Below, piece by piece: positions 13,815 to 38,254 of a stretch of DNA of 47,248 nucleotides. The number at the start of each line of letters is the position of its first letter. Positions within the stretch are counted from its first letter, which is position 1. This stretch comes from a virus. Its lineage: Duplodnaviria; Heunggongvirae; Uroviricota; Caudoviricetes. The stretch lies in IMG/VR virus record IMGVR_UViG_2721755657_000003; one strand, given 5' to 3'. Position numbers and translations under genes: made by a program. The notes under the pieces were generated by a model, which worked only from the letters and a program-made list of their open reading frames with translations, searched no databases and was not told the origin of the DNA.

Positions 13815-14617
13815 TCACATCTCTGTAACAGAGTGTACGTAATTAACAACTACACACTGCTCCTGAAAATACTGGTCATCCAGTGCAAAGATCACTGCTT
13901 CAAATTCATCGCGCTCAATCAATACCGGATGAGTGGCTAAATATTCATTTATCTCTGTCAGAGATAAAGGCAAAGGCACCCCAGCCATTCCAGCATAACG
14001 TCGGGCACGGGATATTACCGAATAGGCGTACAACAACTCCTTAAGCACCGGGTCTATTTCTGGTTCCGGTATCGGTGGCAACCTGAGTTTTTCTCGCTTC
14101 CATCTTGCCTTTTCCCCCCTTTCTCCCCCGAACTCCGATAACCACCGCTGGGCAGCTATGGCTTTTTTATCGTATCCTGCTTCTGCTGCTCTTTACCCTG
14201 GGCGATGCTGGCTGCTTCTGCAAGGATCTGCCAGTACAACTCTGGATTCTGCTTAAGCAGCGCGATCCCTCGTTCTGCCGTATATTCCAGTGCAACCTCA
14301 ACACCATTAACCAGTTCACCAACCCCTTTCCAGTCTTTCAGCAGATAACGAGCGGCATTATCAATGAGTAAATCATCAACAGAATCCACCTCGGAAACCT
14401 TTGAAATATCAAACTCCTTCGTTCCGACGTGCAAACTGGCATCCATTTTCTCAATGTGGCGACGGATTAATGCATTACGGGAGCGATACTGATCGTTATC
14501 GCTGCTTGCCACCAACAGTTTTAACCCGTCTACAGGTTTTAAGTCCTTCATTGGCGTAAACCAGCGTTCTCCACCAATGATAATTTTCTGATTAAGAATA
14601 AACATCCATAACCTCAT
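13815..14617 (-). CDS. tail assembly chaperone G-T fusion (programmed -1 frameshift product)
   Basis: The -1 frame is open from the slippery site to the stop at 13815 and reads ...KKAIAAQRWLSEFGGERGEKARWKREKLRLPPIPEPEIDPV...; canonical G/GT arrangement. Confidence 0.6.
14156..14617 (-). CDS. tail assembly chaperone G
   Basis: 153-aa acidic ORF immediately upstream of the tape measure gene; ends ...TIKKP at a slippery heptamer. Confidence 0.7.
   Translation of the reverse strand: MRLWMFILNQKIIIGGERWFTPMKDLKPVDGLKLLVASSDNDQYRSRNALIRRHIEKMDASLHVGTKEFDISKVSEVDSVDDLLIDNAARYLLKDWKGVGELVNGVEVALEYTAERGIALLKQNPELYWQILAEAASIAQGKEQQKQDTIKKP
14162..14168 (-). other. programmed -1 ribosomal frameshift slippery heptamer A_AAA_AAG
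   Basis: Minus strand ACC ATA AAA AAG CCA TAG: heptamer sits 1 codon before the G stop; same heptamer class as the dnaX frameshift site. Confidence 0.6.
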
Positions 14618-22037: not shown

Positions 22038-23348
22038 TTAAATCCGAAGTGATGTGACTCTTCCGGTCGGTTTGACAATAGGGAATTGCTTAACGATGAA
22101 ATAACCTCCGGCATCATTCGGGTGATCATTGCCAGATTTTTTATCAGGCTCCCCCTTATCATCCCAGACCTGTTGCTCCAGAGATTCGGCATATACCGGA
22201 CAACGCTTCACATTAACTTTATAGCGACGCTCACCATTGGCATTGCAGAACATTGCATTCATTGAGTTAACGCGATCTTTTACTGGCGGGTTCGAGCTGT
22301 TCACCACAACGTTAAAACCTGCCTGCTTAAGCTGGGCTATATCCGTCGTACTTGCGTTACTTGATTTTCTGGAATCTCCGGAAGCATCTGGATAAATATA
22401 AATCTCCCTCACTTTCCGGTAATCATGCCCGTCATACAGCCAGAAGCGTTCTTTAATGAGGCGGATCATATCCGGCGTATCGTAGGCATTGATGATTTCA
22501 GTTACCGCACATGGAAGCCCCAAACGCAGCACATGGACGATTCCCGCCATCTTTCCAACGTTAAAATCCATCCCAATATAAATCGGCTCCCCTGGCTGCT
22601 CCACTTCTTCGCAATTATTCAGTTTCCGGTCAAACTGATGGTAAACAGTACCACTTGTCAGGTTAGTAAACCGTCCTAGAAGATAGGCTTTAATCAGCTC
22701 TGGAGGGTATGATTCAAGAAGTGAAGGAATGTAATCTGCTGGCAGGTTCTTTTCATTATCGAAAGTAGATGCCTGCACCAGACCATACAGTGAGGCCAGC
22801 TCTGTTTTTTCACGCACGGCTTTAACAAACTGCTCGTAGACAAATTTGAATCCTTCCGGCGTGGTTGTAACGTCAATACCGTTGCGAAGTCCATCAATCT
22901 TATAACGCATACGCGCAATTATCTTGCGCCACGCCGTTCTGGCTTTTTCCTTCGGCAAAATGTCCAGTTCATCCACCAGCGCATTACCAATTTTGAAACC
23001 GACGATCGTTTGTGGCTTCTCCATCGATCTGCAGATAGTGGTTCCCCGATACTGGCGTCCGTAATAAAAGTGAACCTCTTTATTTCCCTCATTAATTTTT
23101 ACGTTCAATCCCCAGTCAGCAGCAACTTCTTCCACTGTAGGGTAAAAAATATCGCGAATTTGGGGATACGTTGGCGCAAAATATCCCTGATTTATACCTG
23201 GATGCTCCCAAATCCCCTTGCATATGCCGCCACACCCAACCCATGTTTTGCCCGAGCCAAAACCAGCAATATAGGCTTTAAATTTATGGGGCATTGAAAG
23301 AAATCGCGCCTGAGGCACATTAAGCGTCGGAGAGATCATCTTCATCAC
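22038..23348 (-). CDS. terminase large subunit
   Basis: 436-aa ORF with N-terminal Walker A (AGFGSGKTWVG) and a C-terminal acidic nuclease-type region; overlaps the TerS end. Confidence 0.85.
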   Translation of the reverse strand: MMKMISPTLNVPQARFLSMPHKFKAYIAGFGSGKTWVGCGGICKGIWEHPGINQGYFAPTYPQIRDIFYPTVEEVAADWGLNVKINEGNKEVHFYYGRQYRGTTICRSMEKPQTIVGFKIGNALVDELDILPKEKARTAWRKIIARMRYKIDGLRNGIDVTTTPEGFKFVYEQFVKAVREKTELASLYGLVQASTFDNEKNLPADYIPSLLESYPPELIKAYLLGRFTNLTSGTVYHQFDRKLNNCEEVEQPGEPIYIGMDFNVGKMAGIVHVLRLGLPCAVTEIINAYDTPDMIRLIKERFWLYDGHDYRKVREIYIYPDASGDSRKSSNASTTDIAQLKQAGFNVVVNSSNPPVKDRVNSMNAMFCNANGERRYKVNVKRCPVYAESLEQQVWDDKGEPDKKSGNDHPNDAGGYFIVKQFPIVKPTGRVTSLRI

Positions 23349-24414
23349 TCCTTAATCTGGCATCAACCACATTAATATTGATCGCCACAGGCTGGGGATG
23401 TTCATTATCCTCCACCGTTTCGATCTCTTTGCGCAGCTTCTGGTTCTCTATTCTGCGCCGTTCAATTTCCAGTTCCTGTAGCCGCTTATCTGCACATAAT
23501 GCCCCGCCAGCAGAAAGCAAACGCAACAATTCACGCCGGGCGGCAGCCTTATCCTCCAGCAGGATCTCAACACCGTATTTTCCGAGCTTTGACCCTGCAT
23601 ATAATTGCCGCGCATCCCCATCAAGCAGTGTGGTATCAGCCATATAAAGCTGTCCTGTTCCCTCACCGCAGCACTTCGGGCAATCAGGATTGGGTATGGC
23701 GTTATCAACAAAGCCGAGGCCTCCATATTCCGGCTCGGGTTTACCATCTCTGGAGGCCTGTGCCGCAGCCTTATCGAATTCTGCAATATCACGCCACTGG
23801 TAGAGATGATTCTCGCCCCAGCAATAACGGCAGTTAACACGGCGAAATTGTGCCAACTGATTGGGGTCGGCCTGGACAATGGCCATCAACTGGCTCACCA
23901 GTAAATCCAGGTCTGCGGTATAGCGTTTCTGGTACTGATTGCGGAAGTAGCTGATAGCACGATAAACCCTGGCATTTCTAAGCATACGGCTGGCGTTGCT
24001 GTTAGCTGTCGCACCTTGCCCCTCATAACCAGCCAGTCGGTATGCCTCTGTCGGCTTTTTCCCCTGAGCAACCAACATGGCGAATTTTGCCTGCTGGTCA
24101 GAAATACCGAATTCATCGGGGCAGAACGAAATTTCTTCCGTGTCCCCCTCAATCAGGAGTGCATCGGATACAGCCTTTTTTTTCTGAGATTTTCCGTTCT
24201 GCCTTTGCGCAGTCTGCGCAGTTTTTTTTCGCGCACTTTTTTGCGCAGTTTTGCGCATTTCTTTCTGCGCATTTTTCGGAGTTTTTTTGATGTAACGACG
24301 GGCTGTTGCGTAGTTCAGTCCCCTTGCTTCACACCATGCCACCGGAGATATACCGGAGCGGGTGTATTCAGCAATATACTCCTGCTGCAACGCCCCCCAG
24401 TCCGGTCTGCTCAT
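23320..24414 (-). CDS. terminase small subunit (Terminase_2-like core with HTH N-terminus and basic low-complexity linker)
   Basis: 364-aa ORF upstream of TerL; central segment (DQQAKFAMLVAQGKKPTEAYRLAGYEG...) resembles small-terminase DNA-binding domains. Confidence 0.65.
   Translation of the reverse strand: MSRPDWGALQQEYIAEYTRSGISPVAWCEARGLNYATARRYIKKTPKNAQKEMRKTAQKSARKKTAQTAQRQNGKSQKKKAVSDALLIEGDTEEISFCPDEFGISDQQAKFAMLVAQGKKPTEAYRLAGYEGQGATANSNASRMLRNARVYRAISYFRNQYQKRYTADLDLLVSQLMAIVQADPNQLAQFRRVNCRYCWGENHLYQWRDIAEFDKAAAQASRDGKPEPEYGGLGFVDNAIPNPDCPKCCGEGTGQLYMADTTLLDGDARQLYAGSKLGKYGVEILLEDKAAARRELLRLLSAGGALCADKRLQELEIERRRIENQKLRKEIETVEDNEHPQPVAININVVDARLRSDEDDLSDA
24170..24290 (-). repeat. 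imperfect tandem TGCGCA(G)-T-run DNA repeats encoding the basic KTAQK-type linker of TerS
   Basis: Plus strand shows about six ctgcgca/ttgcgca units separated by T-runs. Confidence 0.6.
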
Positions 24415-24417
24415 CAG

Positions 24418-24669
24418 TTAGTCCTGATTTTTATCCACCCTGAGTAGTTCGCGCAGAGCAAAGGCATCCCCTTTTCTGGCAAGCTTAAACAATGCCGCTC
24501 GTAACTCGGCTTCACCTTTCGCTCTGCCCTTACGGATGGCCGCATAAAAATCTGTCATTGCTTCCCGATTTTCTTTCAGTCGGTTCAGATCAACATCCAG
24601 AACGTCAGCGATTTGTTGTGCAGTCATCCGGCACGCTGCCAGAGACTCGACTTTCGAATACGGAATCAT
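24418..24669 (-). CDS. hypothetical small protein upstream of TerS
   Basis: 83-aa ORF ending 3 nt before the TerS start; overlaps the 3' end of the 318-aa ORF, so the true start may be the internal Met at 24627. Confidence 0.4.
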   Translation of the reverse strand: MIPYSKVESLAACRMTAQQIADVLDVDLNRLKENREAMTDFYAAIRKGRAKGEAELRAALFKLARKGDAFALRELLRVDKNQD

Positions 24670-25561
24670 TTGTCACCCCCATTGATATGCAGGGTGTCTT
24701 CTTCCTGTATTTTTCGTGAAGGATTTTTACTGCAGCGTTGTTCCAGGTGACCTGATGGTGAATGCGTTTATGGCTGGCACCCATCAGTGAGATTTTTACG
24801 CACGACGGCGAATACATGACGGAGTAAAAACTTTTAACGTAGGTTCCGGAATCCAGATACAGCTCGGTCATTCCGCCGCTGTTTTTCTGCGTCTGTTTCT
24901 GCCCTAACTGGACAGCACCGATCGTCATAAACAATTCACCACAGCGACCGAGATTCGTGTACGTATTCACATCCTCGTTAATGCGCCCCATGAATGAGAA
25001 CGGTCGATCAACCGAACAGATAAAGCTGTTCATTGCCTTGCGTTTCACCCACGAAGCATGGCCGCCATTGTCACCAAGAAAATCCCCGCCCTGCGACATA
25101 GCGATGGAAAGCGCGGGTATTGATTCGTAATACGCCAGCATTTCAGAAAGGATCGCATCCAGTTTCCTTATCGGGAAATAGGCCTGGTCATAGTTGCGAT
25201 CCACCCGAAACTGGAACTCGTGATAATCATCATCGAGCTGAATGAAGTATTTACACCCGACCAGTTTTGCCAGGTCGAAACAGGCATTACGGGCGTAAAA
25301 AATTGAGCGGCGATCACCAAAATTATCGGCTTCGTCAAAACGACTGGCAATATCGGCTTTGGAAAATACCAGCACCTGTTCACCAAATTCAGCCATGTAC
25401 TGATGCCGTGTCTTATCTTCATCATCAACAACGATAAAAATTTTCCCGGTATAGCCAGCACGACGCAACGTCCGGTAAGTCAGAACTTTGTCCGGTCGCC
25501 CGTGAGTCAGAATAAAGGCGCAAAAATCATCACGCATATTCCTCCTCCTCCTCCCCGCCAT
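24605..25561 (-). CDS. hypothetical protein with acidic DxD-type motifs (possible GT-A-like nucleotide-sugar transferase fold)
   Basis: 318-aa ORF; motifs FIVVDDEDKT and FIQLDDDY followed by NEDV; function not recognisable from sequence alone. Confidence 0.45.
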   Translation of the reverse strand: MAGRRRRNMRDDFCAFILTHGRPDKVLTYRTLRRAGYTGKIFIVVDDEDKTRHQYMAEFGEQVLVFSKADIASRFDEADNFGDRRSIFYARNACFDLAKLVGCKYFIQLDDDYHEFQFRVDRNYDQAYFPIRKLDAILSEMLAYYESIPALSIAMSQGGDFLGDNGGHASWVKRKAMNSFICSVDRPFSFMGRINEDVNTYTNLGRCGELFMTIGAVQLGQKQTQKNSGGMTELYLDSGTYVKSFYSVMYSPSCVKISLMGASHKRIHHQVTWNNAAVKILHEKYRKKTPCISMGVTNDSVFESRVSGSVPDDCTTNR

Positions 25562-25630
25562 GCATGATCTCCACCATGCGCTGCGTCATTCGGACAAATC
25601 CATTTTCAATAGCCTGCTGATAATCAATGA

Positions 25631-26323
25631 TCACCAGCGCGACTCCTCGAAAAGGCACTGAATTTCAGCGGGGGCATGAGCGTAATAGTCCGCAATTCTG
25701 CTGAAATTAAACACTGTGTGACGTTCTGCCGCACACAGGAGGAATTTCTCAATATCAGGATCAAGGGACGCCGAACGTATCCGGCTGATCAGCTCCTGAG
25801 TTTTCGTATCGTCGTACAGTTCACTGATATCCGGTTTACCGCCCGACGGCTCATAAACAGGCGTATCAATTTTCGTCGTATACGGCTCCTCCTCATTTCC
25901 TGTACCGGGCAAAACATCCGTCAACAGTTCATCAATTTCTGTCGGGATGAAGCCTGTCAGGGAGACATCAAAATCAGCATTGATTAGGTCCGACAGCTCC
26001 ATCCGCAACAGATCTTCATCCCAGCCAGCATTCATCGGCAGGCGATTATCTGCCAGGCGGTACGCCTTTTTCTGCTCATCCGTCAGGCCAGACAGAACAA
26101 TGACCGGAACAGAATCCATTTTGAGCATTTCAGCCGCCATAACACGACCGTGACCCGCAATAATTTCGCCCTTTTCGTCAATCAGCACCGGATTAGTCCA
26201 GCCGAATTGCTTAATACTTTCTACCAGTTGTGCCACCTGCTCAGTACTGTGCGTCCTGGCGTTGTGCGCATACGGTGACAATTCTTGTAATGGGCGATAG
26301 ACTATCTTTAATTTCTCGCTCAT
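25631..26323 (-). CDS. ParB-like nuclease domain protein
   Basis: 230-aa ORF; N-terminal region carries the ParB/Srx-type motif (NPVLIDEKGEIIAGHGRVMAA, cf. the GxxRxxA box). Confidence 0.6.
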   Translation of the reverse strand: MSEKLKIVYRPLQELSPYAHNARTHSTEQVAQLVESIKQFGWTNPVLIDEKGEIIAGHGRVMAAEMLKMDSVPVIVLSGLTDEQKKAYRLADNRLPMNAGWDEDLLRMELSDLINADFDVSLTGFIPTEIDELLTDVLPGTGNEEEPYTTKIDTPVYEPSGGKPDISELYDDTKTQELISRIRSASLDPDIEKFLLCAAERHTVFNFSRIADYYAHAPAEIQCLFEESRW

Positions 26324-26340: not shown

Positions 26341-26375
26341 ATAAAACGCACCCCAGCAGCCAGTGCTACTGGGGG
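26341..26375 (-). terminator. intrinsic terminator-like hairpin downstream of trkG
   Basis: Minus strand CCCCAG-(12-nt loop)-CTGGGG followed by UGCGUUUUAU. Confidence 0.4.
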
Positions 26376-26460: not shown

Positions 26461-27918
26461 TTAGGAGCGCCAAAAAAAACCTGAAAACAATATAATAACA
26501 GGATAAATTTCAAGGCGACCAAGAATCATAGCTATGCACATTAAATATTTTGCAATGTCATTAAGCACTCCGAATGACGATGCAGTAGCCCCAAAACCTA
26601 ATCCCATATTATTAATACATGCAGCCACTGTTGCAAATGATGTAAGAAAATCATATCCCATACCATTTAACACCAGTATAAAAAACACCGTGAAGAGAGT
26701 ATAAAGAAAAAAGAAACTCCATACAGACCTCATTACACGATCTGTAACTATCTTCCCTCCTACATTTACACTCAACAACGCTCTGGGATGAGAAAGCTGA
26801 TTTATCTCGTGTTTGCTTTGTTTGAAAAGTATAAGAAATCGAAGTGACTTAATTCCACCACAGGTTGAACCTATACATCCCCCAAAGAAACTTGACAACA
26901 GCAAAAACACTATCGTGTGCGTGGGCCAGTTTGCATAATCCTGCGTAGCTAAACCATTATCAGTGAGCATGGAGCTGGCAAGAAAAAACGAATGAATAAA
27001 ACTTCCATGCAAGTCATACATACCTATATGCCAGACCTGGAAAGAGGTAACAATGATCACCCCTAAGGCTATTAACAGAAAGAAACGAAGTTCAATATCT
27101 CTGATTAAAGGTTTTATCGTTTTTCTGCTAATAACAATATACCAAAGAGTGAAGTTGAAAGCCGATAGCAGGGAAAAAGAACCAGCCACCAGCTCAACCA
27201 AATAGTTATTAAAATATCCGATACTCTCGCTATGAGTTGAGAAACCACCAAGCGAAACTGTGGAAATCCCGTGACAAATAGCATCAAACAAAGGCATTCC
27301 TGCAAGTCTATAACAGACAATACAAGCAATACCTAATAAAGAATAAGTTATCCACAGTGTCCGTGACGTATCGGCCAGGCGGGGAGTGAGTTTGTCATCC
27401 TTAAATGGCCCCGGCATTTCTGACTGATAAAGCTTTGCACCACCAATACCCAATAATGGCAATACTGCAACCGCCAGAACAATAACTCCTAAACCACCTA
27501 TAAAATTTAACTGTGACCGATAGTACAAATATGCCCGAGGTAATGAACTAACATCATCAATTACAGTTGCTCCTGTTGTTGTTATTCCAGAAACCCCTTC
27601 AAACAGAGCATCAATGAACGTTAAATTAAGTTCTGAGTCAAACCATAAAGGGAATGCACTAATAACAGAAAACAAAATCCAAAACATTACAATTATAATA
27701 AACCCATCACGGGTACGTAATTGAATGCCAGATTTCTTAGTTGTATACCACGCTCCGCCACCAATGCAAAAAAATATAACGAAAGTTATAAAGAAAACGA
27801 ACAGGCTTTTTTCTTTATAAAACAATGCTACAACCATTGGTGGCAACATTGAAAGACTATAGAGCCAAACCAGGAACCCACACATATGAGTAACAACTCT
27901 TACATGAGATGTATTCAT
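26461..27918 (-). CDS. trkG: Trk-system potassium uptake membrane protein TrkG (prophage cargo)
   Basis: Polytopic membrane ORF, strongly AT-rich; start placed at MNTSHVRVVTHMCGF... as recalled for K-12 TrkG; same position between Rz and the ParB-like gene as in K-12 Rac. Confidence 0.85.
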   Translation of the reverse strand: MNTSHVRVVTHMCGFLVWLYSLSMLPPMVVALFYKEKSLFVFFITFVIFFCIGGGAWYTTKKSGIQLRTRDGFIIIVMFWILFSVISAFPLWFDSELNLTFIDALFEGVSGITTTGATVIDDVSSLPRAYLYYRSQLNFIGGLGVIVLAVAVLPLLGIGGAKLYQSEMPGPFKDDKLTPRLADTSRTLWITYSLLGIACIVCYRLAGMPLFDAICHGISTVSLGGFSTHSESIGYFNNYLVELVAGSFSLLSAFNFTLWYIVISRKTIKPLIRDIELRFFLLIALGVIIVTSFQVWHIGMYDLHGSFIHSFFLASSMLTDNGLATQDYANWPTHTIVFLLLSSFFGGCIGSTCGGIKSLRFLILFKQSKHEINQLSHPRALLSVNVGGKIVTDRVMRSVWSFFFLYTLFTVFFILVLNGMGYDFLTSFATVAACINNMGLGFGATASSFGVLNDIAKYLMCIAMILGRLEIYPVIILFSGFFWRS

Positions 27919-28055
27919 ATCTAAATATTCTTTCAATTATAACCACCTTGCTGCAATATTATGATTATACTGTATAAAATTTAACTCCTCTTAGATCTTA
28001 CTTCACTGTTCCTTATGAAACAATCATCAAAATGAATCATATTGTAGTTAAGATT

Positions 28056-28532
28056 TTACTTTAAACACTGTTCGGTTATGTATTGCTGAGCACCTTCAAG
28101 TTGGGCCTGCATCATTACCAGTCGTTCCCGGAGGGTGAAATAATCCCGTTCAGCGGTGTCTGCCAGTCTGGGGGAGACTGCATTATCCACGCTGGAGGTG
28201 GCGGTGGCTTCACGCACTGACTGACAGACTGCTTTGATGCGCAACCGACGACGACCAGCGGCAACATCATCACGCAGAGCATCATTTTCAGCTTTCGCAT
28301 CAGCTAACTCCTTCGTGTATTTTGCATCGAGCGCAGCAACATCACGCTGACGCATCTGCATGTCAGTAATTGCCGCGTTCGCCAGCTTCAGTTCTCTGGC
28401 ATTTTTGTCGCGCTGTTCTTTGTAGGCGATGGCGTTATCACGGTAATGATTAACACCCCATGACAGGCAGACGACGATGCAGATAACCAGAGCGGAGATA
28501 ATCGCGGTTACTCTGTTCATTGCTGACCCCAC
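28056..28532 (-). CDS. Rz: spanin inner-membrane subunit Rz (i-spanin)
   Basis: 158-aa ORF with an N-terminal TM segment and coiled-coil periplasmic domain, directly downstream of the endolysin gene. Confidence 0.85.
28115..28300 (-). CDS. Rz1: spanin outer-membrane lipoprotein Rz1 (o-spanin), embedded in Rz
   Basis: 61-aa ORF in an alternative frame wholly inside Rz; lipobox VVGC and Pro-rich mature part (PPPPPAW). Confidence 0.8.
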
Positions 28533-29014
28533 AAACAGATTTCACGCTCAATCTCACGACGAGTCATGAGACCTTTCCATTGCTTACCGCCAGCATATGT
28601 CCAGCGACGTAGCTGATCACATGCGCCTTTGATATCGCCCTGGTTTATTTTGCGAAGAAGCGTCGATGTTCTGAAATTGCCAGCACCCACGTTGTAAACG
28701 AATGAGTAAAGAGCGCCGCGCGTTGTTTCCGGTATATCGACTTTGATGTACGGGTTAATTTGTCTGGCGACCGTGGCAAGGTCTTTATTCAAGAGTGTTT
28801 TGCATTCTGCTTTGGTATACGTTTTACCGAGCATGATGTCTTTTCCTGTATGCCCGTGACATACAGTACATACACCAACAATATCTTTGTATGGTATGTA
28901 GCTGACACCTTCCAGACCATCGTTACCACTTGGGCCAGTGATTAACACTGATGCTATAGCAATTGCTCCGCCACCAATAGCAGCAGCAACGACTTTTCGT
29001 AATGATGGAGGCAT
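28517..29014 (-). CDS. R: SAR endolysin (phage 21/P1-type lysozyme)
   Basis: 165-aa ORF with a Gly/Ala-rich weakly hydrophobic N-terminal signal-anchor-release segment ([18 protein letters not shown]) followed by a lysozyme-like domain; start overlaps the holin stop. Confidence 0.85.
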
Positions 29015-29229
29015 TATTCACCTCTCGCAGCCTTGCGCTTATCTTCTTTAATCTTGAAATAAAGGTTTGTCAGGTACGTCAGTAGGCCAAATACCAGACT
29101 ACCCAGCACACCGATTGCAGCCCACTGTGACGGAGTTACTCTATCGAGCAACTGTAAAAACCAGTAGCCAGCACTGCCTGCGGAGGTGCCGTAGGCAATG
29201 CCTGTTGAAATTTTGTCCATGGATTTCAT
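29014..29229 (-). CDS. S: class II pinholin with dual-start motif (S21-like)
   Basis: ORF-track ORF trimmed to [26 protein letters not shown]...; ATG codons at 29229 and 29220 give the Met-Lys-Ser-Met dual start; two TM domains. Confidence 0.85.
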
Positions 29230-29332
29230 AGCCTCACCTCCGCACGGAACGGATGGCATAGTTATTATGTGTAGGCTTTCAGACACATCAATCAGAGCCT
29301 TAATTGATATATATGCTGGAGACGATGCAATA

Positions 29333-29480: not shown

Positions 29481-29876
29481 CTAACCTCGCATGTCAAAGC
29501 CAGATTTCTGAAAATCTCTGTAGACTTCCGGATTGTTGAAGGCCGGAAATTTGGCTTTATGAGCTGCGGACTTTATCGCTTCGCAATAGGCTTTATCACC
29601 GTTACTGGTAGATATTTTTAACGCCGTGCCATCCTGAGAGAATTCCATATGCAACCTGCATTTTTTCCCTTTCCAGTTATGCGGCTCATCAAGTTTGGCA
29701 TTAATTGCAGCTCTGATTCCCCGCGCTTGCGCCCCCCATTCATCCTGATCATCCCAGCGTCCTGAACTGCAACTACCTGTAGCAGTAGTTTTGTGGCAAT
29801 CTGAAGGGTGTAAAGGTGTGCATCCCGCAACAAAACCGACCCAAAAAGTCAACATAACGATTTTCTTTAATCCCAC
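29481..29876 (-). CDS. outer-membrane lipoprotein with divergent TolA domain III-like C-terminus
   Basis: 131-aa ORF; signal peptide plus lipobox FVAGC with Thr at +2; C-terminal half (KKCRLHMEFSQDGTALKIS...NPEVYRDFQKSGFDM) parallels the paralogue at 30027..30455. Confidence 0.6.
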   Translation of the reverse strand: MGLKKIVMLTFWVGFVAGCTPLHPSDCHKTTATGSCSSGRWDDQDEWGAQARGIRAAINAKLDEPHNWKGKKCRLHMEFSQDGTALKISTSNGDKAYCEAIKSAAHKAKFPAFNNPEVYRDFQKSGFDMRG

Positions 29877-30026: not shown

Positions 30027-30455
30027 TCAGGGTTTAAAATCCAGCACCCCATTTTGAAATACTTTATATACTTCCGGCGAAGGGGGGGCAGGTATATCAG
30101 CATTCTTTATCGCATTCATCGCTTCACGACATAAATCGAGGTCTCCACTTTCTCTTTTAACCTCCAGTAGAAGGCCATTCGGGGCCATATGCATTCTCAG
30201 TGTACACTCTTTTCCTGAATACTTACTCGCATCCCCGAACTGTTTTTCGATGGCGCTCTTGATTTGATGGGCATACAGACGGATATCCTCACTAACATCA
30301 GAAGTACGTTCAGATGAACTCACATACTGTGTCTCTATTGCTTTATCGGAGTAATATGATGTACGGTCATGATAATTTGTCGATACAGCATCAGTGCACC
30401 CGATAATAATCCCACTAATAATCAACGTAAGAATTGATGCGCTACGAAAACCCAT
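30027..30455 (-). CDS. outer-membrane lipoprotein with TolA C-terminal (domain III)-like domain
   Basis: 142-aa ORF; lipobox IIGC with Thr at +2; C-terminal ~85 aa match by eye the recalled E. coli TolA C-terminus (QIKSAIE..F.DAS.Y.GK.CTLR...P.G.LL......GD..LC..A..A.K.A.IP.PPS..VY.VF.N..LDFKP). Confidence 0.7.
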   Translation of the reverse strand: MGFRSASILTLIISGIIIGCTDAVSTNYHDRTSYYSDKAIETQYVSSSERTSDVSEDIRLYAHQIKSAIEKQFGDASKYSGKECTLRMHMAPNGLLLEVKRESGDLDLCREAMNAIKNADIPAPPSPEVYKVFQNGVLDFKP

Positions 30456-33617: not shown

Positions 33618-35687
33618 TTACTTACATTTATTATTTAAATAGACCCTTATGTACTGATCGAGCAGTTTACCTAATTGTTTATTAACTTCGTCATGTTTTT
33701 GCGGGCTTCTCATTTTTGACAGATGCCTTTCAAGGAACTTAGAGGGTAACTTCACAACTAATTTATTATGATTATCATAAATTTCTTTTACCCACGTAAG
33801 CTCTTTATGTTTTTCTAAATTCTCTGTGTGATCTCTATTTATGATAAAAGCTATCCGCCCATAGTCTTTAAACAAATAGGAATTTACCTGTCTATATTCT
33901 GCAGCACCTAATGTTTTATAGTTTTTCACTTCAAAAACAACTTGCCGTGTCTGATAATCTGTCAGAATTCTCTTCCAAACTGGAGTGTCAGCTATATTTG
34001 TCGCTATAATATCTCTTTGCTGCAACCCATTTTTATTGGGATGCAACTCAATGTTCGTTAAATTCGTAGCAAATAGTAACTTTATAGTTTTGAGCGCCCA
34101 TGCTTCAAAATCGACAGCACCTTCAGGTCCTTCAGGTATATTATGTAGTTCTTGGAGCAACGAACCGATTCGTTGTTTCCTCTGCTCTTCGGAAACAGAG
34201 CTGACCTCAATATCATATTCATCATGAATATCATCAGCAGCATCGGGAGTCATCTCTGATTCATGAACACTTAATGCTAGCCAGTAGCATGGATGCAATA
34301 GCAATTTTGAATCTGGTGTAAATTCTTTTTCAGGTTCCTTACCGTCATGGCAAAATACATATGAAGATGACTGCTGGTTATACAACCCAATAAATCCAAC
34401 ACTGTAAAGTCGTTGAATCACCTGGATTGGCCCTTCAAAAAGAAGTAAATCCTGCATTTTCATCTTGTCAATAACGCCATTGAGATCAAGGGCATATTGT
34501 ATCTTAGATGACGCTTCAGAAACACTGTAGTAAGGTTTGCTATTAGCAAATTGCGATGTAAATATATCTAATGCAGGAAATACATTCTCATATTCTTTTA
34601 ACAAATCATTGAGTCTATTTTGTGAAATAGTATTCGCTGTTGCTTGAATGTCATCAATGACAATACGATTACGATCATGTGTGTTTGCTCGCAAGAATGC
34701 ATTATTTAACAAAACCAAAATATCTCTTGGCCTATATAGAGTCAGTTTCAATGTTTCTTTAAAACCGGTATTAGACTGTAATTCATTTGCGGTGTAAGCA
34801 TTCCACACCCTCGTGTTGTTCTCAATGGTTGAGTTAAAAGCGACCCTCATTCTATTGCATACAAGATTAAACAAGTTATATTCATCCCAATGTAATCTCA
34901 GTACTTGCCCTTCAATATTTCGAGTAAAATCAGGGTCCATTTTTGATATGGCTCGATGAATATTATCTCTAACAAATGCAAAGGCAATAACCTTTTCATT
35001 CATATTTTGTTTTATATCAATCACAGCCTGAATGAAACCATCAACTATTGCAACACCAAGATTATCCGGTGTATAGCCTTCATCAAGCCTATCAGCAAAA
35101 ATAACAAATTGATTATTTGACTTCGAAATTGCTTCTTCTATCACCTCTTCCAATAAGTCAAGTTCAAATTTATCGGATAATTCGGCTATTCTTGTAGCTG
35201 GTTTTATATTTTTGTTATCATCGAGAATAGCGTTCAATTTTTTTCTTATTTTGCTACTTATATTTTGTCTCTTCGGTCCCCAAGATAATAAATGCGACTC
35301 TACACTTTTGTAGTCAAGATCGTTTTTCATCTTGTAATGACTTGCGATCTCAGAAAGCAGCTCCATATAAATAGCATATCGCCATGCTAACTTGCTACCG
35401 GCTTTTATATGTAAGTAATTTTCACCAAATAAAGAAATAACATCCCTTAATCCAATAATTTGTTCTTCAACCGGACTAATAGTCATCACATAGGTTTTTG
35501 GCTTAGCATGCCAATGTTTGGAAAGCATATGCACCAGAGCACTTTTTCCTGTTCCTCTGCGGCCAACAATGATGCATCGATCGTAGGATTCGAGAAGAGC
35601 TTTATAATCAGTTGTTTGCCAAAATGAAGCTTCCAACATCTTTTCGTCATGTTCAGCTCGGATATCCCCAAGAATATTACCTTTCAT
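33618..35687 (-). CDS. P-loop NTPase with C-terminal PD-(D/E)xK-like nuclease motif (candidate anti-phage defence / abortive-infection protein)
   Basis: 689-aa ORF, strongly AT-rich versus flanks; Walker A GRRGTGKS (aa 42-49); Walker B-like VIFADRLDE (~aa 193-201); C-terminal QQRDIIATN...VVFEVKNYK fits D...(D/E)xK; AAGGA RBS; own terminator. Confidence 0.7.
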   Translation of the reverse strand: MKGNILGDIRAEHDEKMLEASFWQTTDYKALLESYDRCIIVGRRGTGKSALVHMLSKHWHAKPKTYVMTISPVEEQIIGLRDVISLFGENYLHIKAGSKLAWRYAIYMELLSEIASHYKMKNDLDYKSVESHLLSWGPKRQNISSKIRKKLNAILDDNKNIKPATRIAELSDKFELDLLEEVIEEAISKSNNQFVIFADRLDEGYTPDNLGVAIVDGFIQAVIDIKQNMNEKVIAFAFVRDNIHRAISKMDPDFTRNIEGQVLRLHWDEYNLFNLVCNRMRVAFNSTIENNTRVWNAYTANELQSNTGFKETLKLTLYRPRDILVLLNNAFLRANTHDRNRIVIDDIQATANTISQNRLNDLLKEYENVFPALDIFTSQFANSKPYYSVSEASSKIQYALDLNGVIDKMKMQDLLLFEGPIQVIQRLYSVGFIGLYNQQSSSYVFCHDGKEPEKEFTPDSKLLLHPCYWLALSVHESEMTPDAADDIHDEYDIEVSSVSEEQRKQRIGSLLQELHNIPEGPEGAVDFEAWALKTIKLLFATNLTNIELHPNKNGLQQRDIIATNIADTPVWKRILTDYQTRQVVFEVKNYKTLGAAEYRQVNSYLFKDYGRIAFIINRDHTENLEKHKELTWVKEIYDNHNKLVVKLPSKFLERHLSKMRSPQKHDEVNKQLGKLLDQYIRVYLNNKCK

Positions 35688-37465: not shown

Positions 37466-38254
37466 TTACCCCCTGAAGCCTGGCGGGATCGCACTATCCG
37501 GTAACGAGACGGTGTTAACCTGTCGGAGTAACGTCTCAGGTCGAACACCTTTCGGCGCGAACAAGCCCTGGTATTCGTTGGCGATGCTGTGTCGAATCAC
37601 CTGCTCAGGTGAAAAACCCTGCTGGCGGAATTTTTCCAGCTCCCGTATCGCCCCGTTAGCGCCCTGCTCCGTTCGAATCGGTTTTCGCAATGCCTGCCTG
37701 AACTGAACCCACTCATGCCAGAGTGTTTCCGGCAACCAGTCAGGCAGCTCGATAGCCTCCGGTTCGAATTTTTTAGACGCTCGTTTTTGGCGAGGGGGAT
37801 TTAGGGGGAGATAAGTATTTATATCTTCCTCTTTCTCTTCCTCTGGTAACGCTTTTTGATCCGTTTTTGTAACGCTGGCAGCGTTACCTTTTCGTTTCAG
37901 TTCTCGTATTTTTGTTACTCTCTCGTTTGTAACCGCCCGTTTTTTAGAGCTTTTCCCGTTATGGCGCTCAAAGTTAGGAAGCGACAACACACCATTAGTT
38001 TCGACCAGCCATCCAACCTGAATTAACGCATCAGCAAAACCAGCCATAAAAGTGATGCGATCTATTGCACTTTTTGTAACGCCGCGAGCGTTACACTCTG
38101 CGTTACCGTCTATCATTTGTTGATCCGCCCATGCCCAGAAGCGAATGACTTTCCCTAATGCGGCATCTGGATCAATATTCAGAATCTCAGCAAGCCTGAA
38201 TATTTCCGGCTTATCCGGCGTAATAACTTCGAGCTTTATCCAGTTTGAAGCCAT
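37466..38254 (-). CDS. ydaU: replication initiation protein (O-like)
   Basis: 262-aa ORF between ydaT and the DnaC-like gene; basic central linker; Rac synteny. Confidence 0.75.
   Translation of the reverse strand: MASNWIKLEVITPDKPEIFRLAEILNIDPDAALGKVIRFWAWADQQMIDGNAECNARGVTKSAIDRITFMAGFADALIQVGWLVETNGVLSLPNFERHNGKSSKKRAVTNERVTKIRELKRKGNAASVTKTDQKALPEEEKEEDINTYLPLNPPRQKRASKKFEPEAIELPDWLPETLWHEWVQFRQALRKPIRTEQGANGAIRELEKFRQQGFSPEQVIRHSIANEYQGLFAPKGVRPETLLRQVNTVSLPDSAIPPGFRG

What the first reader, a model, noticed from the sequence alone, without database searches (positions are those of the whole stretch)
24418..26323. Uncharacterised trio between lysis and terminase: ParB-like nuclease-domain protein, 318-aa DxD-motif protein and 83-aa protein
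The ParB/Srx-type protein (AGHGRVMAA box) and the 318-aa protein with acidic DDEDK/DDD/NED motifs sit just upstream of TerS, where packaging-associated nucleases or DNA-modification functions are often found. The 318-aa protein is not recognisable as a methyltransferase or PAPS reductase. A GT-A-like fold would suggest sugar transfer to DNA or envelope, but that is only a guess. K-12 Rac keeps remnants at the equivalent position (ynaK/ydaY as I recall), so the block is conserved but functionally undescribed.
Basis: partly seen in the sequence, partly recalled or inferred. Interest (0 to 1): 0.45.

Follow-up and report, generated by a model that had tools for sequence, protein, structure and literature searches.

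The report
Phage sugar-transferase with ParB-like partner
Just upstream of the DNA-packaging genes, this Rac-type E. coli prophage carries a sugar-transferring enzyme of a family known to decorate phage DNA, next to a dedicated ParB-like helper; the pair is widespread in tailed viruses, but what it puts sugar on is unknown, because these phages lack the enzymes that normally make the attachment point.

Summary
The three ORFs exist as described. It is not a trio. The conserved unit is a pair: ParB-like protein then TAGT. A partner lies beside the TAGT gene in 163 of 164 diverse loci with room to judge, once as a single fused protein. The pair sits upstream of at least four large-terminase families in bacteria and archaea. 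The 83-aa ORF is a small-terminase-like accessory found only in Enterobacterales. The most conserved part of the partner is not its ParB nucleotide-binding domain. It is a disordered Y[TS]xK[IV]xxPxYE[PI] linker plus a helical C-terminal domain that has no Pfam model. In this window a private 1-nt deletion (25640/25641) removes the most conserved helix, so the module is probably inactive here. No TET/JBP dioxygenase, hydroxymethylase or cytosine methylase was found in this prophage, and none is annotated in phage c5. Best reading: a late-expressed, partner-dependent DNA glycosyltransferase, analogous to the ParB-dependent thymine dioxygenases reported in 2026, with an unknown acceptor. This is a new variant of a known kind, of moderate to high interest. 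The trio region occurs at 80% coverage or more in 866 of 5426 complete E. coli genomes, and K-12 has lost it.

The parts
25631..26323 (-). ParB-like partner gene (ynaK, full-length type), truncated here to 230 aa by a frameshift. It has a ParB/Srx nucleotide-binding domain (aa 1-135, box II reads GHGR instead of GERR), a disordered linker with the conserved motif Y148-T-x-K-I-x-x-P155-x-Y157-E-P, and the start of a helical C-terminal domain.
25640..25641 (-). Site of a 1-nt deletion (GAGTC-GCG versus GAGTCGGCG). It shifts the frame at codon ~228 and removes the most conserved helix of the partner (SALVIIDxxxAIxNG). It is either a private mutation or a sequencing error.
   Evidence: (0 of 85 related loci share it; 65 are intact)
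25530..25658 (-). Orphan 42-aa ORF that encodes the displaced C-terminal tail of the ParB-like protein (ALVIIDYQQAIENGFVRMTQRMVEIMHGGEEEEEYA). Its GGAGG-rich poly-Glu codons lie immediately upstream of the glycosyltransferase ATG and resemble a ribosome-binding site (my reading of the sequence). Its stop overlaps that ATG (ATGCGTGA).
24605..25561 (-). TAGT-family GT-A glycosyltransferase. The likely true start is 25537 (310 aa). It has R22, the D110-D111-D112 motif, E196-D197 and H268-H269. The last ~22 aa are an E. coli-specific, low-confidence extension that overlaps the next gene.
   Evidence: PF20691, 6e-35; phrog_842, 1.5e-103
24418..24669 (-). 83-aa small-terminase-like accessory protein. 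It belongs to the packaging module, not to the glycosyltransferase pair.
   Evidence: (phrog_309 TerS, 8e-23)
23320..24414 (-). Terminase small subunit (context: the pair sits directly upstream of the packaging genes).
26351..26374 (-). Terminator-like GC-rich hairpin followed by a T-run, between the trkG stop and the ParB-like start. It suggests the pair is expressed from the antiterminated late transcript and not from the trkG moron in lysogens.

Best explanation
The finding is a two-gene module, not a trio. One gene is a TAGT-family GT-A glycosyltransferase. The other is a dedicated, very acidic ParB-like partner made of a ParB nucleotide-binding domain, a disordered Y[TS]xK[IV]xxPxYE[PI] linker and a helical C-terminal domain. 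In intact copies the two genes overlap by 8 nt, which suggests translational coupling. They lie in the late operon directly upstream of the terminase genes. Shown: family membership, GT-A fold, conserved catalytic motifs, near-obligate pairing, a natural fusion, the position upstream of terminase, and no identifiable enzyme for making hydroxymethyl-pyrimidines. Inferred: the partner binds and switches on or targets the glycosyltransferase, as ParB-like proteins do for phage thymine dioxygenases acting on double-stranded DNA. The enzyme would then transfer a sugar from a nucleotide-sugar donor onto replicated phage DNA before packaging. The most plausible purpose is to blunt host nucleases. The acceptor atom is unknown. 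The 83-aa protein is a small-terminase accessory. In this window the partner has lost its most conserved helix to a 1-nt deletion, so this copy is probably inactive unless that deletion is a sequencing error.
For: TAGT membership: 121.5 bits against a cutoff of 27.5. AF2 model, pLDDT 77, with a GT-A fold; the best viral structural matches are TAGT proteins, TM 0.72-0.84. R22, DDD110-112, D197 and H269 are invariant and E196 and H268 nearly invariant in 50 homologues. This matches the R...DDD...ED[Y/F] active-site signature reported for DNA-modifying phage GT-A enzymes (bioRxiv 10.1101/2023.12.21.572611). Characterised TAGTs act on DNA: the T2/T6 beta-glucosyl-HMC alpha-glucosyltransferase (PMC13216743). 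Pairing: of 169 diverse loci, 149 have the partner directly upstream and usually overlapping. Counting the fusion L116, loci with an inserted gene and loci with the partner downstream, 163 of the 164 loci with room to judge have a partner beside the TAGT gene; in the remaining one (L166) a C-terminal-domain-only ORF lies about 4 kb upstream. The reverse look-up from the partner domain also lands next to TAGT. The partner's N-domain matches the ParB domain fused to type II DNA methyltransferases, 1.2e-38. Precedent: ParB-like proteins with a nucleotide-binding domain, linker and C-terminal domain but no DNA-binding domain are obligate activators of phage thymine dioxygenase on dsDNA (PMC13229309). 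TAGT identity of 42-64% across Proteobacteria, Firmicutes, Bacteroidota, Actinobacteria and a haloarchaeal virus argues for a universal substrate. The capsid and terminase types differ between hosts of the pair, which argues against a specific virion-protein substrate. Some cassettes carry a second GT-A, an epimerase, a cytidylyltransferase, a radical SAM enzyme or a methyltransferase-like gene, as DNA hypermodification clusters do. A terminator-like hairpin after trkG points to late-only expression.
Against: Every characterised TAGT needs a hydroxyl acceptor. No TET/JBP dioxygenase, thymidylate-synthase-like hydroxymethylase or C5-methylase was found in this prophage. None is annotated in phage c5, and no unassigned c5 ORF exceeds 209 aa. 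Neither family reached the displayed tally among 150 upstream neighbour ORFs, which lists only families with at least 2 hits and may not list all of those. The authors of the GT survey regard such orphan GTs as less obviously DNA-modifying. The partner is strongly acidic (pI 4.5, net charge -26), which is unusual for a DNA clamp. Its ParB domain is absent in at least 15 loci. The catalytic Glu of box II is replaced by His or Asn. I found no report of glycosylated DNA in lambdoid or Rac-type phages.
Confidence: 0.5

Rival explanations
1. Protein glycosylation. The TAGT enzyme O-glycosylates a protein. The most likely target would be its own partner, on one of the two invariant tyrosines (Y148, Y157) or the Thr/Ser of the disordered linker, in the manner of glycogenin, PaTox or GREB1. 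The modified partner would then be the active species.
For: In 151 diverse partners the only residues conserved at 85% or more outside the C-terminal domain are Y148, P155 and Y157. They lie in a segment that AF2 predicts as disordered. Stand-alone linker-plus-C-terminal-domain proteins suffice in at least 15 loci. GREB1, a TAGT-domain protein, is reported to O-GlcNAcylate a protein (PMC7968844). Glycogenin is among the PDB fold matches. No DNA acceptor is evident.
Against: A conserved linear motif is just as well explained as a docking peptide. All phage TAGTs characterised so far act on DNA. There is no obvious benefit to a phage from a self-glycosylated acidic protein. The ParB domain subfamily is the one fused to DNA methyltransferases.
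Confidence: 0.18
2. The enzyme still needs hydroxymethyl-pyrimidines, which it does not make itself. It would act on 5hmC/5hmU or glucosyl-5hmC DNA that comes from elsewhere, such as a co-infecting T-even-like phage or a dioxygenase encoded far away. It would serve as an exclusion or interference function, or opportunistically.
For: The known acceptors of the family are 5hmC, 5hmU and glucosyl-5hmC. The bioRxiv authors raise prophage GTs acting on invading phage DNA as a possibility. Many phage dioxygenases escape the Pfam TET_JBP model.
Against: Complete genomes with the pair show no candidate enzyme: none found in this prophage, none annotated or large enough in phage c5. A terminator-like hairpin and the late-operon position argue against expression in lysogens. 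The pair is also present in virulent-type phages (c5, Vibrio pv27) and in a haloarchaeal virus, where T-even-like competitors are not expected. T-even-type TAGTs are only 23-25% identical and lack the partner.
Confidence: 0.1
3. Small-molecule or RNA glycosylation. The enzyme would glycosylate a ribose hydroxyl of a nucleotide, a signalling molecule or an RNA, for example to inactivate a host defence signal. The ParB nucleotide-binding domain would serve as the nucleotide-binding subunit.
For: The ParB fold binds varied NTPs (PMC12704722). The acidic partner does not look like a DNA binder. A sugar or ribitol hydroxyl is a more natural GT-A acceptor than a canonical base; TarP is the best PDB match of related phage GT-As. 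Some cassettes include a cytidylyltransferase.
Against: There is no precedent in this family. The fixed position at the head of the packaging genes and late timing fit poorly with countering early-acting immune signals. The ParB domain is dispensable in about 10% of loci.
Confidence: 0.08
4. Packaging function. The ParB-like protein would be a nuclease or a pac/cos-recognition factor working with terminase. The glycosyltransferase would be a passenger.
For: The first large ORF downstream of the pair is a terminase large subunit in most of 144 loci. In Nocardia phage NTR1 and L. delbrueckii c5 the pair lies at the genome end, beside cos or TerL. The Pfam domain was historically called 'ParB-like nuclease'.
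Against: The pair accompanies at least four unrelated TerL families and different TerS types, so no specific interaction is conserved. This prophage has its own TerS and a TerS-like 83-aa protein. The strongest conservation is in the glycosyltransferase and in the partner's C-terminal domain, not in the ParB fold. Vibrio phage pv27 has the pair next to a helicase, not a terminase.
Confidence: 0.05

Closest known systems
T2/T6 beta-glucosyl-HMC alpha-glucosyltransferase (the T-even member of Pfam TAGT, PF20691)
   Same: Same Pfam family, GT-A fold and DxD motif. PHROG 842 carries this name.
   Different: Only 23-25% identity to T4-like Aeromonas phage homologues. T-even enzymes extend a glucose already attached to 5hmC. 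They depend on dCMP hydroxymethylase and alpha-GT, neither of which was identified here. They have no ParB-like partner.
Metagenomic phage C5-methyltransferase / 5mYOX (TET) / GT-A hypermodification clusters (PMC8256090; bioRxiv 10.1101/2023.12.21.572611)
   Same: Post-replicative phage GT-A enzymes with the R...DDD...ED[Y/F] signature, often near terminase and ParB-like genes.
   Different: Those clusters make their own 5hmC or 5hmU acceptor. The Rac-type cassette has no identifiable methylase, dioxygenase or hydroxymethylase. That survey sets such orphan GTs aside as of unclear function.
ParB-dependent phage thymine dioxygenases (5mYOX176/ParB176; PMC13229309, 2026)
   Same: A phage ParB-like protein with a nucleotide-binding domain, disordered linker and C-terminal domain, no DNA-binding domain, encoded next to a DNA-modifying enzyme and needed for its activity on dsDNA. 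The predicted architecture of the partner here is the same.
   Different: The client enzyme here is a glycosyltransferase, not a dioxygenase. Sequence relatedness of the two C-terminal domains could not be tested because no ParB176 sequence was available. Here the C-terminal domain alone suffices in some lineages, whereas ParB176 needs both domains.
Kinetoplastid base-J glucosyltransferase (JGT) and human GREB1
   Same: Members of the TAGT superfamily. PGAP names the E. coli protein 'GREB1-related'. Phage GT-A models match T. cruzi JGT structurally.
   Different: JGT needs JBP-made 5hmU. GREB1 is reported to glycosylate a protein. Neither has a ParB-like partner.
ParB-domain / DNA N6-N4 methyltransferase fusions of prophages
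   Same: The N-domain of the partner matches these at 1.2e-38 (PADLOC MTase_II) and 6e-51 (phrog_498). [quoted passage not shown]
   Different: Here the ParB domain is joined to a family-specific C-terminal domain. The enzyme is a separate polypeptide, apart from one natural fusion, L116. It is a sugar transferase, not a methyl transferase.
DpdB/DpdA (7-deazaguanine DNA modification) and IbrB/IbrA (ParB-like plus PAPS-reductase-like) pairs. These are recalled from my own knowledge and were not tested here.
   Same: A ParB-like protein encoded next to, and working with, an enzyme that acts on or near DNA.
   Different: Different client enzymes. No sequence comparison was made here.

Membership tests
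TAGT (TET-associated glycosyltransferase, Pfam PF20691) | Match to the family profile above the curated cutoff | tested here: met
   121.5 bits against a cutoff of 27.5, E=6.1e-35, profile positions 4-205 of 205. phrog_842 at 1.5e-103.
TAGT (TET-associated glycosyltransferase, Pfam PF20691) | GT-A fold with a DxD metal/nucleotide-sugar motif and the R...DDD...ED[Y/F] signature | tested here: met
   AF2 pLDDT 77. The best PDB matches are SpsA and other GT-A enzymes (E 2e-5 to 1e-3). Viral TAGT models match with TM 0.72-0.84. R22, D110-D112 and D197 are invariant and E196 nearly invariant; Val replaces Tyr/Phe after ED.
TAGT (TET-associated glycosyltransferase, Pfam PF20691) | Genomic association with an enzyme that makes a hydroxymethyl-pyrimidine (TET/JBP dioxygenase or thymidylate-synthase-like hydroxymethylase) | tested here: not met
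   None found in the whole prophage. None annotated in phage c5. Neither family appears in the displayed tally for 150 upstream neighbour ORFs from 64 non-redundant loci. This is a contextual feature, not one required by the Pfam definition.
TAGT (TET-associated glycosyltransferase, Pfam PF20691) | Transfer of a sugar to a DNA base | not testable with these tools
   Needs nucleoside LC-MS or in vitro assays.
Canonical partition ParB (ParABS, CTPase clamp) | ParB/Srx N-terminal fold | tested here: met
   Pfam ParB_N 29.6 bits against 26.3. Foldseek to B. subtilis and M. xanthus ParB, Noc and KorB at E 2e-6 to 1e-5.
Canonical partition ParB (ParABS, CTPase clamp) | GERR box II with the catalytic Glu, a central HTH DNA-binding domain, and a ParA partner | tested here: not met
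   Box II is GHGR, or G[HN]xR across homologues. TIGR00180 scores 38.4 bits against a cutoff of 58.45. No HTH domain was detected, and the protein has pI 4.5. No ParA is annotated in the prophage.
ParB-like activators of phage DNA-modifying enzymes (5mYOX-associated ParB, PMC13229309) | Nucleotide-binding domain, unstructured linker and C-terminal domain, with no DNA-binding domain | tested here: met
   AF2 model of intact homologue P0122: nucleotide-binding domain 1-135, disordered 136-161, helical C-terminal domain 166-258. Compare the description.
ParB-like activators of phage DNA-modifying enzymes (5mYOX-associated ParB, PMC13229309) | Encoded next to, and specific for, a cognate DNA-modifying enzyme | tested here: inconclusive
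   Adjacency to TAGT is near-universal and includes one fusion. However, the client is a glycosyltransferase, not a dioxygenase, and whether it modifies DNA is not shown.
ParB-like activators of phage DNA-modifying enzymes (5mYOX-associated ParB, PMC13229309) | Required for the enzyme's activity on dsDNA | not testable with these tools
   Needs co-expression or in vitro reconstitution.
Terminase small subunit (for the 83-aa ORF) | Similarity to TerS profiles and a position directly upstream of TerS/TerL | tested here: inconclusive
   phrog_309 TerS at 8e-23, but only over profile positions 145-218 of 319. 35% identity to Pasteurella phage Pmp13 TerS. Weak HMM hit to phi jlb1 TerS. No Pfam hit. 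A full 364-aa TerS follows it.

The most novel reading that the evidence does not exclude
The Rac-type TAGT, with its linker-plus-C-terminal-domain partner, glycosylates canonical DNA that has not been hydroxymethylated first. That would be a DNA modification chemistry not yet described. It would be carried by prophages in a sizeable fraction of E. coli genomes and by tailed viruses of many bacterial phyla and of haloarchaea. An equally novel alternative is a self-glycosylating tyrosine-linked partner protein.
Probability: 0.2. Interest if true: 0.9.

Novelty: new variant of a known kind. Interest (0 to 1): 0.55.

Why it matters
DNA-glycosylating phage enzymes are known only downstream of enzymes that first install a hydroxymethyl group. 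Surveys in 2023-2026 report that a large share of phage TAGT/GT-A genes are 'solitary' and leave their function open: 288 of 753 GT-encoding phages in one, and about 65% of roughly 25,000 GT-containing contigs in another. This analysis suggests that, for the subfamily sampled here, 'solitary' is misleading. Every sampled locus has a specific partner domain that has no Pfam model, and the pair sits at the head of the packaging genes across very different viruses.

The pair occurs in a Rac-type prophage of E. coli, and closely related inducible phages have been sequenced. K-12 has deleted it, which may explain why it was never studied. The question 'what does an orphan phage DNA-type glycosyltransferase modify?' therefore becomes directly testable in the easiest genetic system available. 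If the target is unmodified DNA, that would add a new class of epigenetic or anti-restriction mark. If it is a protein, it would redefine what this enzyme family does in viruses.

Tried and rejected
- The idea that the three ORFs form one functional trio is rejected. The 83-aa ORF occurs only in Enterobacterales loci with a Terminase_2 TerS, and it resembles TerS.
- ydaY as the K-12 remnant of the 318-aa gene is rejected. PGAP places ydaY in the tail module.
- A hidden dioxygenase or hydroxymethylase in the window was not found. Pfam scans of the unassigned ORFs gave DUF1627, DUF1367, DUF1133, TolA_C, SieB, Mu_F and DUF6651. One 262-aa protein beside the DnaC-like gene had no hit.
- NCBIfam and PADLOC gave nothing for the glycosyltransferase or the 83-aa protein, so there is no link to a catalogued defence system.
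- The first viral-contig scan returned only near-identical E. coli prophages. I re-ran it with a Lactobacillus phage sequence placed first to get diversity.
- The Iyer et al. 2013 paper that defined TAGT is not held in the library.
- A literature search on HHTV-2 was uninformative.
- No ParB176 sequence was available for comparison.
- The afdb50 fold library was unavailable.
- Glycosylation of DNA 3'-OH ends was considered and dropped. It would block ligation of the cohesive ends of the cos phages that carry the pair.
- A programmed frameshift in the ParB-like gene was considered and dropped, because 65 of 85 related loci are simply in frame.
Full report
**Observation**

The window is an apparently complete Rac-type lambdoid prophage of E. 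coli. It runs from tail fibres at the left to recET, xis and int at the right, and the late genes are on the minus strand.

The order in the region of interest is:
- holin (29014-29286), lysozyme (28517-29014) and Rz/Rz1;
- the low-GC moron trkG (26461-27936);
- the ParB-like ORF (25631-26323, 230 aa);
- the 318-aa ORF (24605-25561);
- the 83-aa ORF (24418-24669);
- TerS (23320-24414), TerL (22038-23348) and portal.

**What the 318-aa protein is**

It matches Pfam PF20691, the TET-associated glycosyltransferase family (TAGT), at E=6.1e-35. The score is 121.5 bits against a curated cutoff of 27.5. It also matches PHROG 842, named 'beta-glucosyl-HMC-alpha-glucosyltransferase', at 1.5e-103. PGAP names it 'GREB1-related protein' in some genomes.

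An AlphaFold2 model built on 50 homologues has mean pLDDT 77 and shows a GT-A fold:
- The best PDB matches are SpsA and other GT-A enzymes.
- The best viral matches are TAGT-domain proteins with TM 0.72-0.84. A T-even-type beta-glucosyl-HMC alpha-glucosyltransferase also matches, at E=1.3e-5.

R22, D110-D111-D112, D197 and H269 are invariant, and E196 and H268 nearly so. This agrees with the R...DDD...ED[Y/F] active-site signature described for DNA-modifying phage GT-A enzymes (bioRxiv 10.1101/2023.12.21.572611).

Homologues start at MRDDF, so the true start is probably 25537 (310 aa). Most homologues are 285-290 aa long. The last ~22 residues of the E. coli protein are a low-confidence extension that overlaps the next gene.

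**What the ParB-like protein is, and its defect here**

The N-terminal 135 residues are a ParB/Srx fold:
- Pfam ParB_N is above its cutoff.
- Foldseek matches ParB, Noc, KorB and PadC at about 1e-5 to 1e-6.
- The domain matches the ParB module fused to type II DNA methyltransferases at 1.2e-38.
- Box II reads GHGR where canonical CTPase ParBs have GERR.

Homologues are 259-266 aa and overlap the glycosyltransferase start. The window ORF stops at 230 aa. DNA alignment with phage vB_EcoS-666R9 shows a single-base deletion in the window, GAGTC-GCG against GAGTCGGCG. The E. coli EC93 copy is annotated as an intact 264-aa protein. The deletion lies at window 25640/25641. Restoring one G recreates the 264-aa protein, which ends in EEEEEYA and whose stop overlaps the glycosyltransferase start (ATGCGTGA). 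None of 85 related E. coli or Shigella loci shares the deletion, and 65 have the intact string. It is therefore a private mutation or a sequencing error.

**The real unit is a pair**

I collected 169 diverse loci that encode a relative of the glycosyltransferase (42-64% identity):
- IMG/VR viral contigs;
- GTDB genomes from Proteobacteria, Bacteroidota, Firmicutes, Verrucomicrobia, Planctomycetes, Actinobacteria and an archaeon;
- contigs from the protein collection;
- GenBank phages: Lactobacillus phi jlb1, Haloarcula virus HHTV-2 and Nocardia NTR1.

I searched these with local HMMs. The results were:
- 149 loci have a ParB-like ORF immediately upstream on the same strand, usually overlapping.
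- NTR1 is also adjacent once the ORF start is corrected.
- One locus (L116) encodes a single 522-aa fusion of partner and glycosyltransferase.
- Nine loci have a second, divergent TAGT-like GT-A gene inserted between the two (L103, L130, L131, L133, L134, L169, L225, L227, L238).
- One locus (L232) has a methyltransferase-like gene inserted there.
- L095 and L096 have the partner directly downstream.
- In L166 a C-terminal-domain-only ORF lies about 4 kb upstream, so it is not adjacent.
- Five loci are cut at the contig edge.

So 163 of the 164 loci with room to judge have a partner beside the TAGT gene.

The reverse test also holds. A search of 1.84 billion representatives with the partner's linker plus C-terminal domain found 1188 clusters, 1001 of them at E of 1e-10 or better. 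The members I sampled lie next to a TAGT gene.

T4-like TAGTs such as that of Aeromonas phage Aeh1 are only 23-25% identical and have no such partner.

**What is conserved in the partner**

In 151 non-identical partners, every position conserved at 85% or more lies in one of two places:
- A linker that AlphaFold predicts as disordered. The conserved residues are Y148, P155 and Y157, in the motif Y[TS]xK[IV]xxPxYE[PI].
- The helical C-terminal domain, spanning K174 to G242. A211, Y214, E226, D234 and A238 are invariant.

No position in the ParB nucleotide-binding domain reaches 85%. At least 15 loci encode a stand-alone 125-150-aa linker-plus-C-terminal-domain protein with no ParB domain. Vibrio phage pv27 is one of them. 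The C-terminal domain has no Pfam model.

The window's frameshift removes the helix SALVIIDxxxAIxNG, which contains D234 and A238. The module is therefore likely inactive in this copy.

The partner is strongly acidic: pI 4.5, net charge -26, and a median pI of 4.5 over 113 homologues. The glycosyltransferase is basic, with a median pI of 8.8.

**Position and expression**

The first ORF of 350 aa or more downstream of the pair was examined in 144 loci. By Pfam it is mostly a terminase large subunit:
- Terminase_6N, 70;
- Terminase_3, 53;
- TerL_ATPase, 13;
- GpA_ATPase, 6;
- a long Terminase_2 TerS, 6.

Counts of related families can overlap. The median gap is a few hundred bases, which is enough for a TerS gene.

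In L. delbrueckii phage c5 the order is cos, ParB-like, TAGT, two small ORFs, then TerL. Capsid types also differ among hosts of the pair: P22-like here, HK97-like in L002 and lambda gpE-like in L004.

In the window, a 10-bp GC-rich hairpin followed by a T-run lies between trkG and the ParB-like gene (26351-26374). The pair should therefore be read only from the antiterminated late transcript.

**The 83-aa ORF**

Its N-terminus (MIPYSKVESLAACRM) is conserved in Pantoea, which supports the start at 24669. It matches part of a TerS PHROG. It has 35% identity to the TerS of Pasteurella phage Pmp13 and gives a weak HMM hit to the phi jlb1 TerS. It occurs only in Enterobacterales loci with the Terminase_2-type TerS. 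It belongs to the packaging module, not to the pair.

**The missing acceptor**

All characterised TAGTs transfer sugar to a hydroxyl group:
- 5hmC in the methylase/TET/GT clusters;
- glucosyl-5hmC in T2 and T6;
- 5hmU for JGT;
- Ser/Thr for GREB1.

PGAP annotation of the near-identical EC93 prophage shows no dioxygenase, hydroxymethylase or DNA methylase, and Pfam scans of the window's unassigned ORFs agree. The complete 31.8-kb genome of phage c5 has none annotated, and no unassigned ORF there exceeds 209 aa. Among 150 upstream ORFs of 220 aa or more from 64 non-redundant loci, the recurrent families are replication and recombination genes. N6_N4 methylase appears 3 times, C5 methylase twice and PAPS reductase twice. 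TET_JBP and thymidylate synthase are not in the displayed tally. That tally lists only 25 of 96 families, so rare hits cannot be excluded.

Some cassettes carry extra genes typical of glycan or hypermodification pathways:
- a second GT-A;
- an NAD-dependent epimerase;
- a radical SAM enzyme;
- a cytidylyltransferase.

**Mechanism proposed**

A 2026 study showed that phage ParB-like proteins activate a thymine dioxygenase specifically on dsDNA. Those proteins have a nucleotide-binding domain, a disordered linker and a C-terminal domain, but no DNA-binding domain. Both folded domains are required, while the NTP-binding residues are surprisingly dispensable (PMC13229309). The partner here has the same predicted architecture.

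By analogy, I propose that the partner binds the glycosyltransferase through its linker and C-terminal domain and licenses it to act on replicated phage DNA late in infection, before packaging.

- Shown: the family, the fold, the catalytic motifs, the near-obligate pairing, the fusion, the position and the absence of a precursor enzyme.
- Inferred: physical interaction, DNA as the substrate, and the protective role.
- Main counter-evidence: no known acceptor on canonical DNA, and the partner's acidity.

Rival readings are protein glycosylation on the partner's invariant tyrosines, action on foreign hydroxymethylated DNA, nucleotide or RNA glycosylation, and a packaging role. They are weighed in the structured fields.

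**Comparison with what is known**

The gene is a bona fide TAGT member by profile, fold and motifs. It fails the contextual feature that names the family, namely association with TET/JBP.

The partner has the ParB fold but is not a partition ParB:
- TIGR00180 scores below its cutoff.
- It has no HTH domain.
- No ParA is annotated in the prophage.
- Box II is altered.

Earlier work mentions ParB-like neighbours of phage GTs only in passing. It treats GTs without a dioxygenase or ThyS as functionally open. The broad survey of the ParB-CTPase fold does not mention glycosyltransferases. I found no experimental work on this pair.

K-12 retains only an 87-aa ynaK fragment. A 2026 screen still calls it uncharacterised, although its overexpression raised the MICs of six antibiotics (PMC12924614).

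**Verdict**

The biologically interesting unit is a widespread two-gene module of TAGT and a ParB-like partner with an undescribed partner domain and an unknown acceptor. It is a new variant of known kinds: phage DNA glycosyltransferases and ParB-dependent DNA-modifying enzymes. This particular copy appears damaged by a frameshift. Interest is moderate to high, because the puzzle is general and becomes testable in E. coli.

Noticed in passing
window 25640-25641 (minus strand, ParB-like gene): A private 1-nt deletion truncates the ParB-like protein from 264 to 230 aa. It removes the most conserved helix of the family. None of 85 related E. coli or Shigella loci has it.
   Followed up: yes
window 24605-24669: The E. 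coli glycosyltransferase runs about 22 codons past the point where homologues stop, and overlaps the 83-aa ORF by 65 nt. The PGAP start for the 83-aa ORF (69 aa) ignores a conserved N-terminus (MIPYSKVESLAACRM).
   Followed up: partly
window 26461-27936 and 26351-26374: trkG is a low-GC moron (GC 0.33-0.41 against about 0.49 in the flanks) inserted between the lysis genes and the ParB-like gene. It is followed by its own strong terminator-like hairpin.
   Followed up: partly
window 33618-35687 (minus strand): A 689-aa P-loop/STAND-like ATPase (PGAP: 'Sll1717 family'). It has weak Pfam hits to ORC-CDC6-like and nSTAND3, and PADLOC hits to candidate defence proteins PDC-M36A (3e-11) and PDC-M28C. 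It may be a prophage-borne defence gene.
   Followed up: no
window 29481-29876 and 30027-30455 (minus strand): Two separate small proteins with TolA C-terminal domains are encoded just upstream of the holin gene. Such phage-borne TolA-like domains could interfere with Tol-dependent entry of other phages or colicins (my speculation).
   Followed up: no
window ~14156-14515 (minus strand): The gene that PGAP calls ydaY lies between the tail-tube and tape-measure genes, where tail assembly chaperones usually sit. It is unrelated to the block under study.
   Followed up: partly
L116:7287-8855: A natural single-polypeptide fusion (522 aa) of the ParB-like partner and the TAGT glycosyltransferase, in a viral metagenome contig.
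   Followed up: partly
L103, L130, L131, L133, L134, L169, L225, L227, L238 (between partner and TAGT); L254:1262-2230; L257:1396-1794; L232:5883-6719: Some cassettes contain extra genes: a second divergent TAGT-like GT-A, a radical SAM enzyme, a CTP_transf_like cytidylyltransferase, or a SAM-methyltransferase-like protein. This suggests that some lineages build or decorate a longer glycan.
   Followed up: partly
L258:3370-4671 (protein P0265): A 433-aa partner with two tandem ParB nucleotide-binding domains before the conserved C-terminal domain, followed by a TAGT gene.
   Followed up: no
E. coli K-12 ynaK (literature, PMC12924614): Overexpressing the truncated K-12 YnaK fragment raised the MICs of six antibiotics in a 2026 genome-wide screen. 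The authors call the gene uncharacterised.
   Followed up: no
window 37466-38254 (minus strand): A 262-aa protein next to the DnaC-like ydaV gene has no Pfam hit at E of 0.01 or better. From its position it is probably the replication initiator.
   Followed up: no
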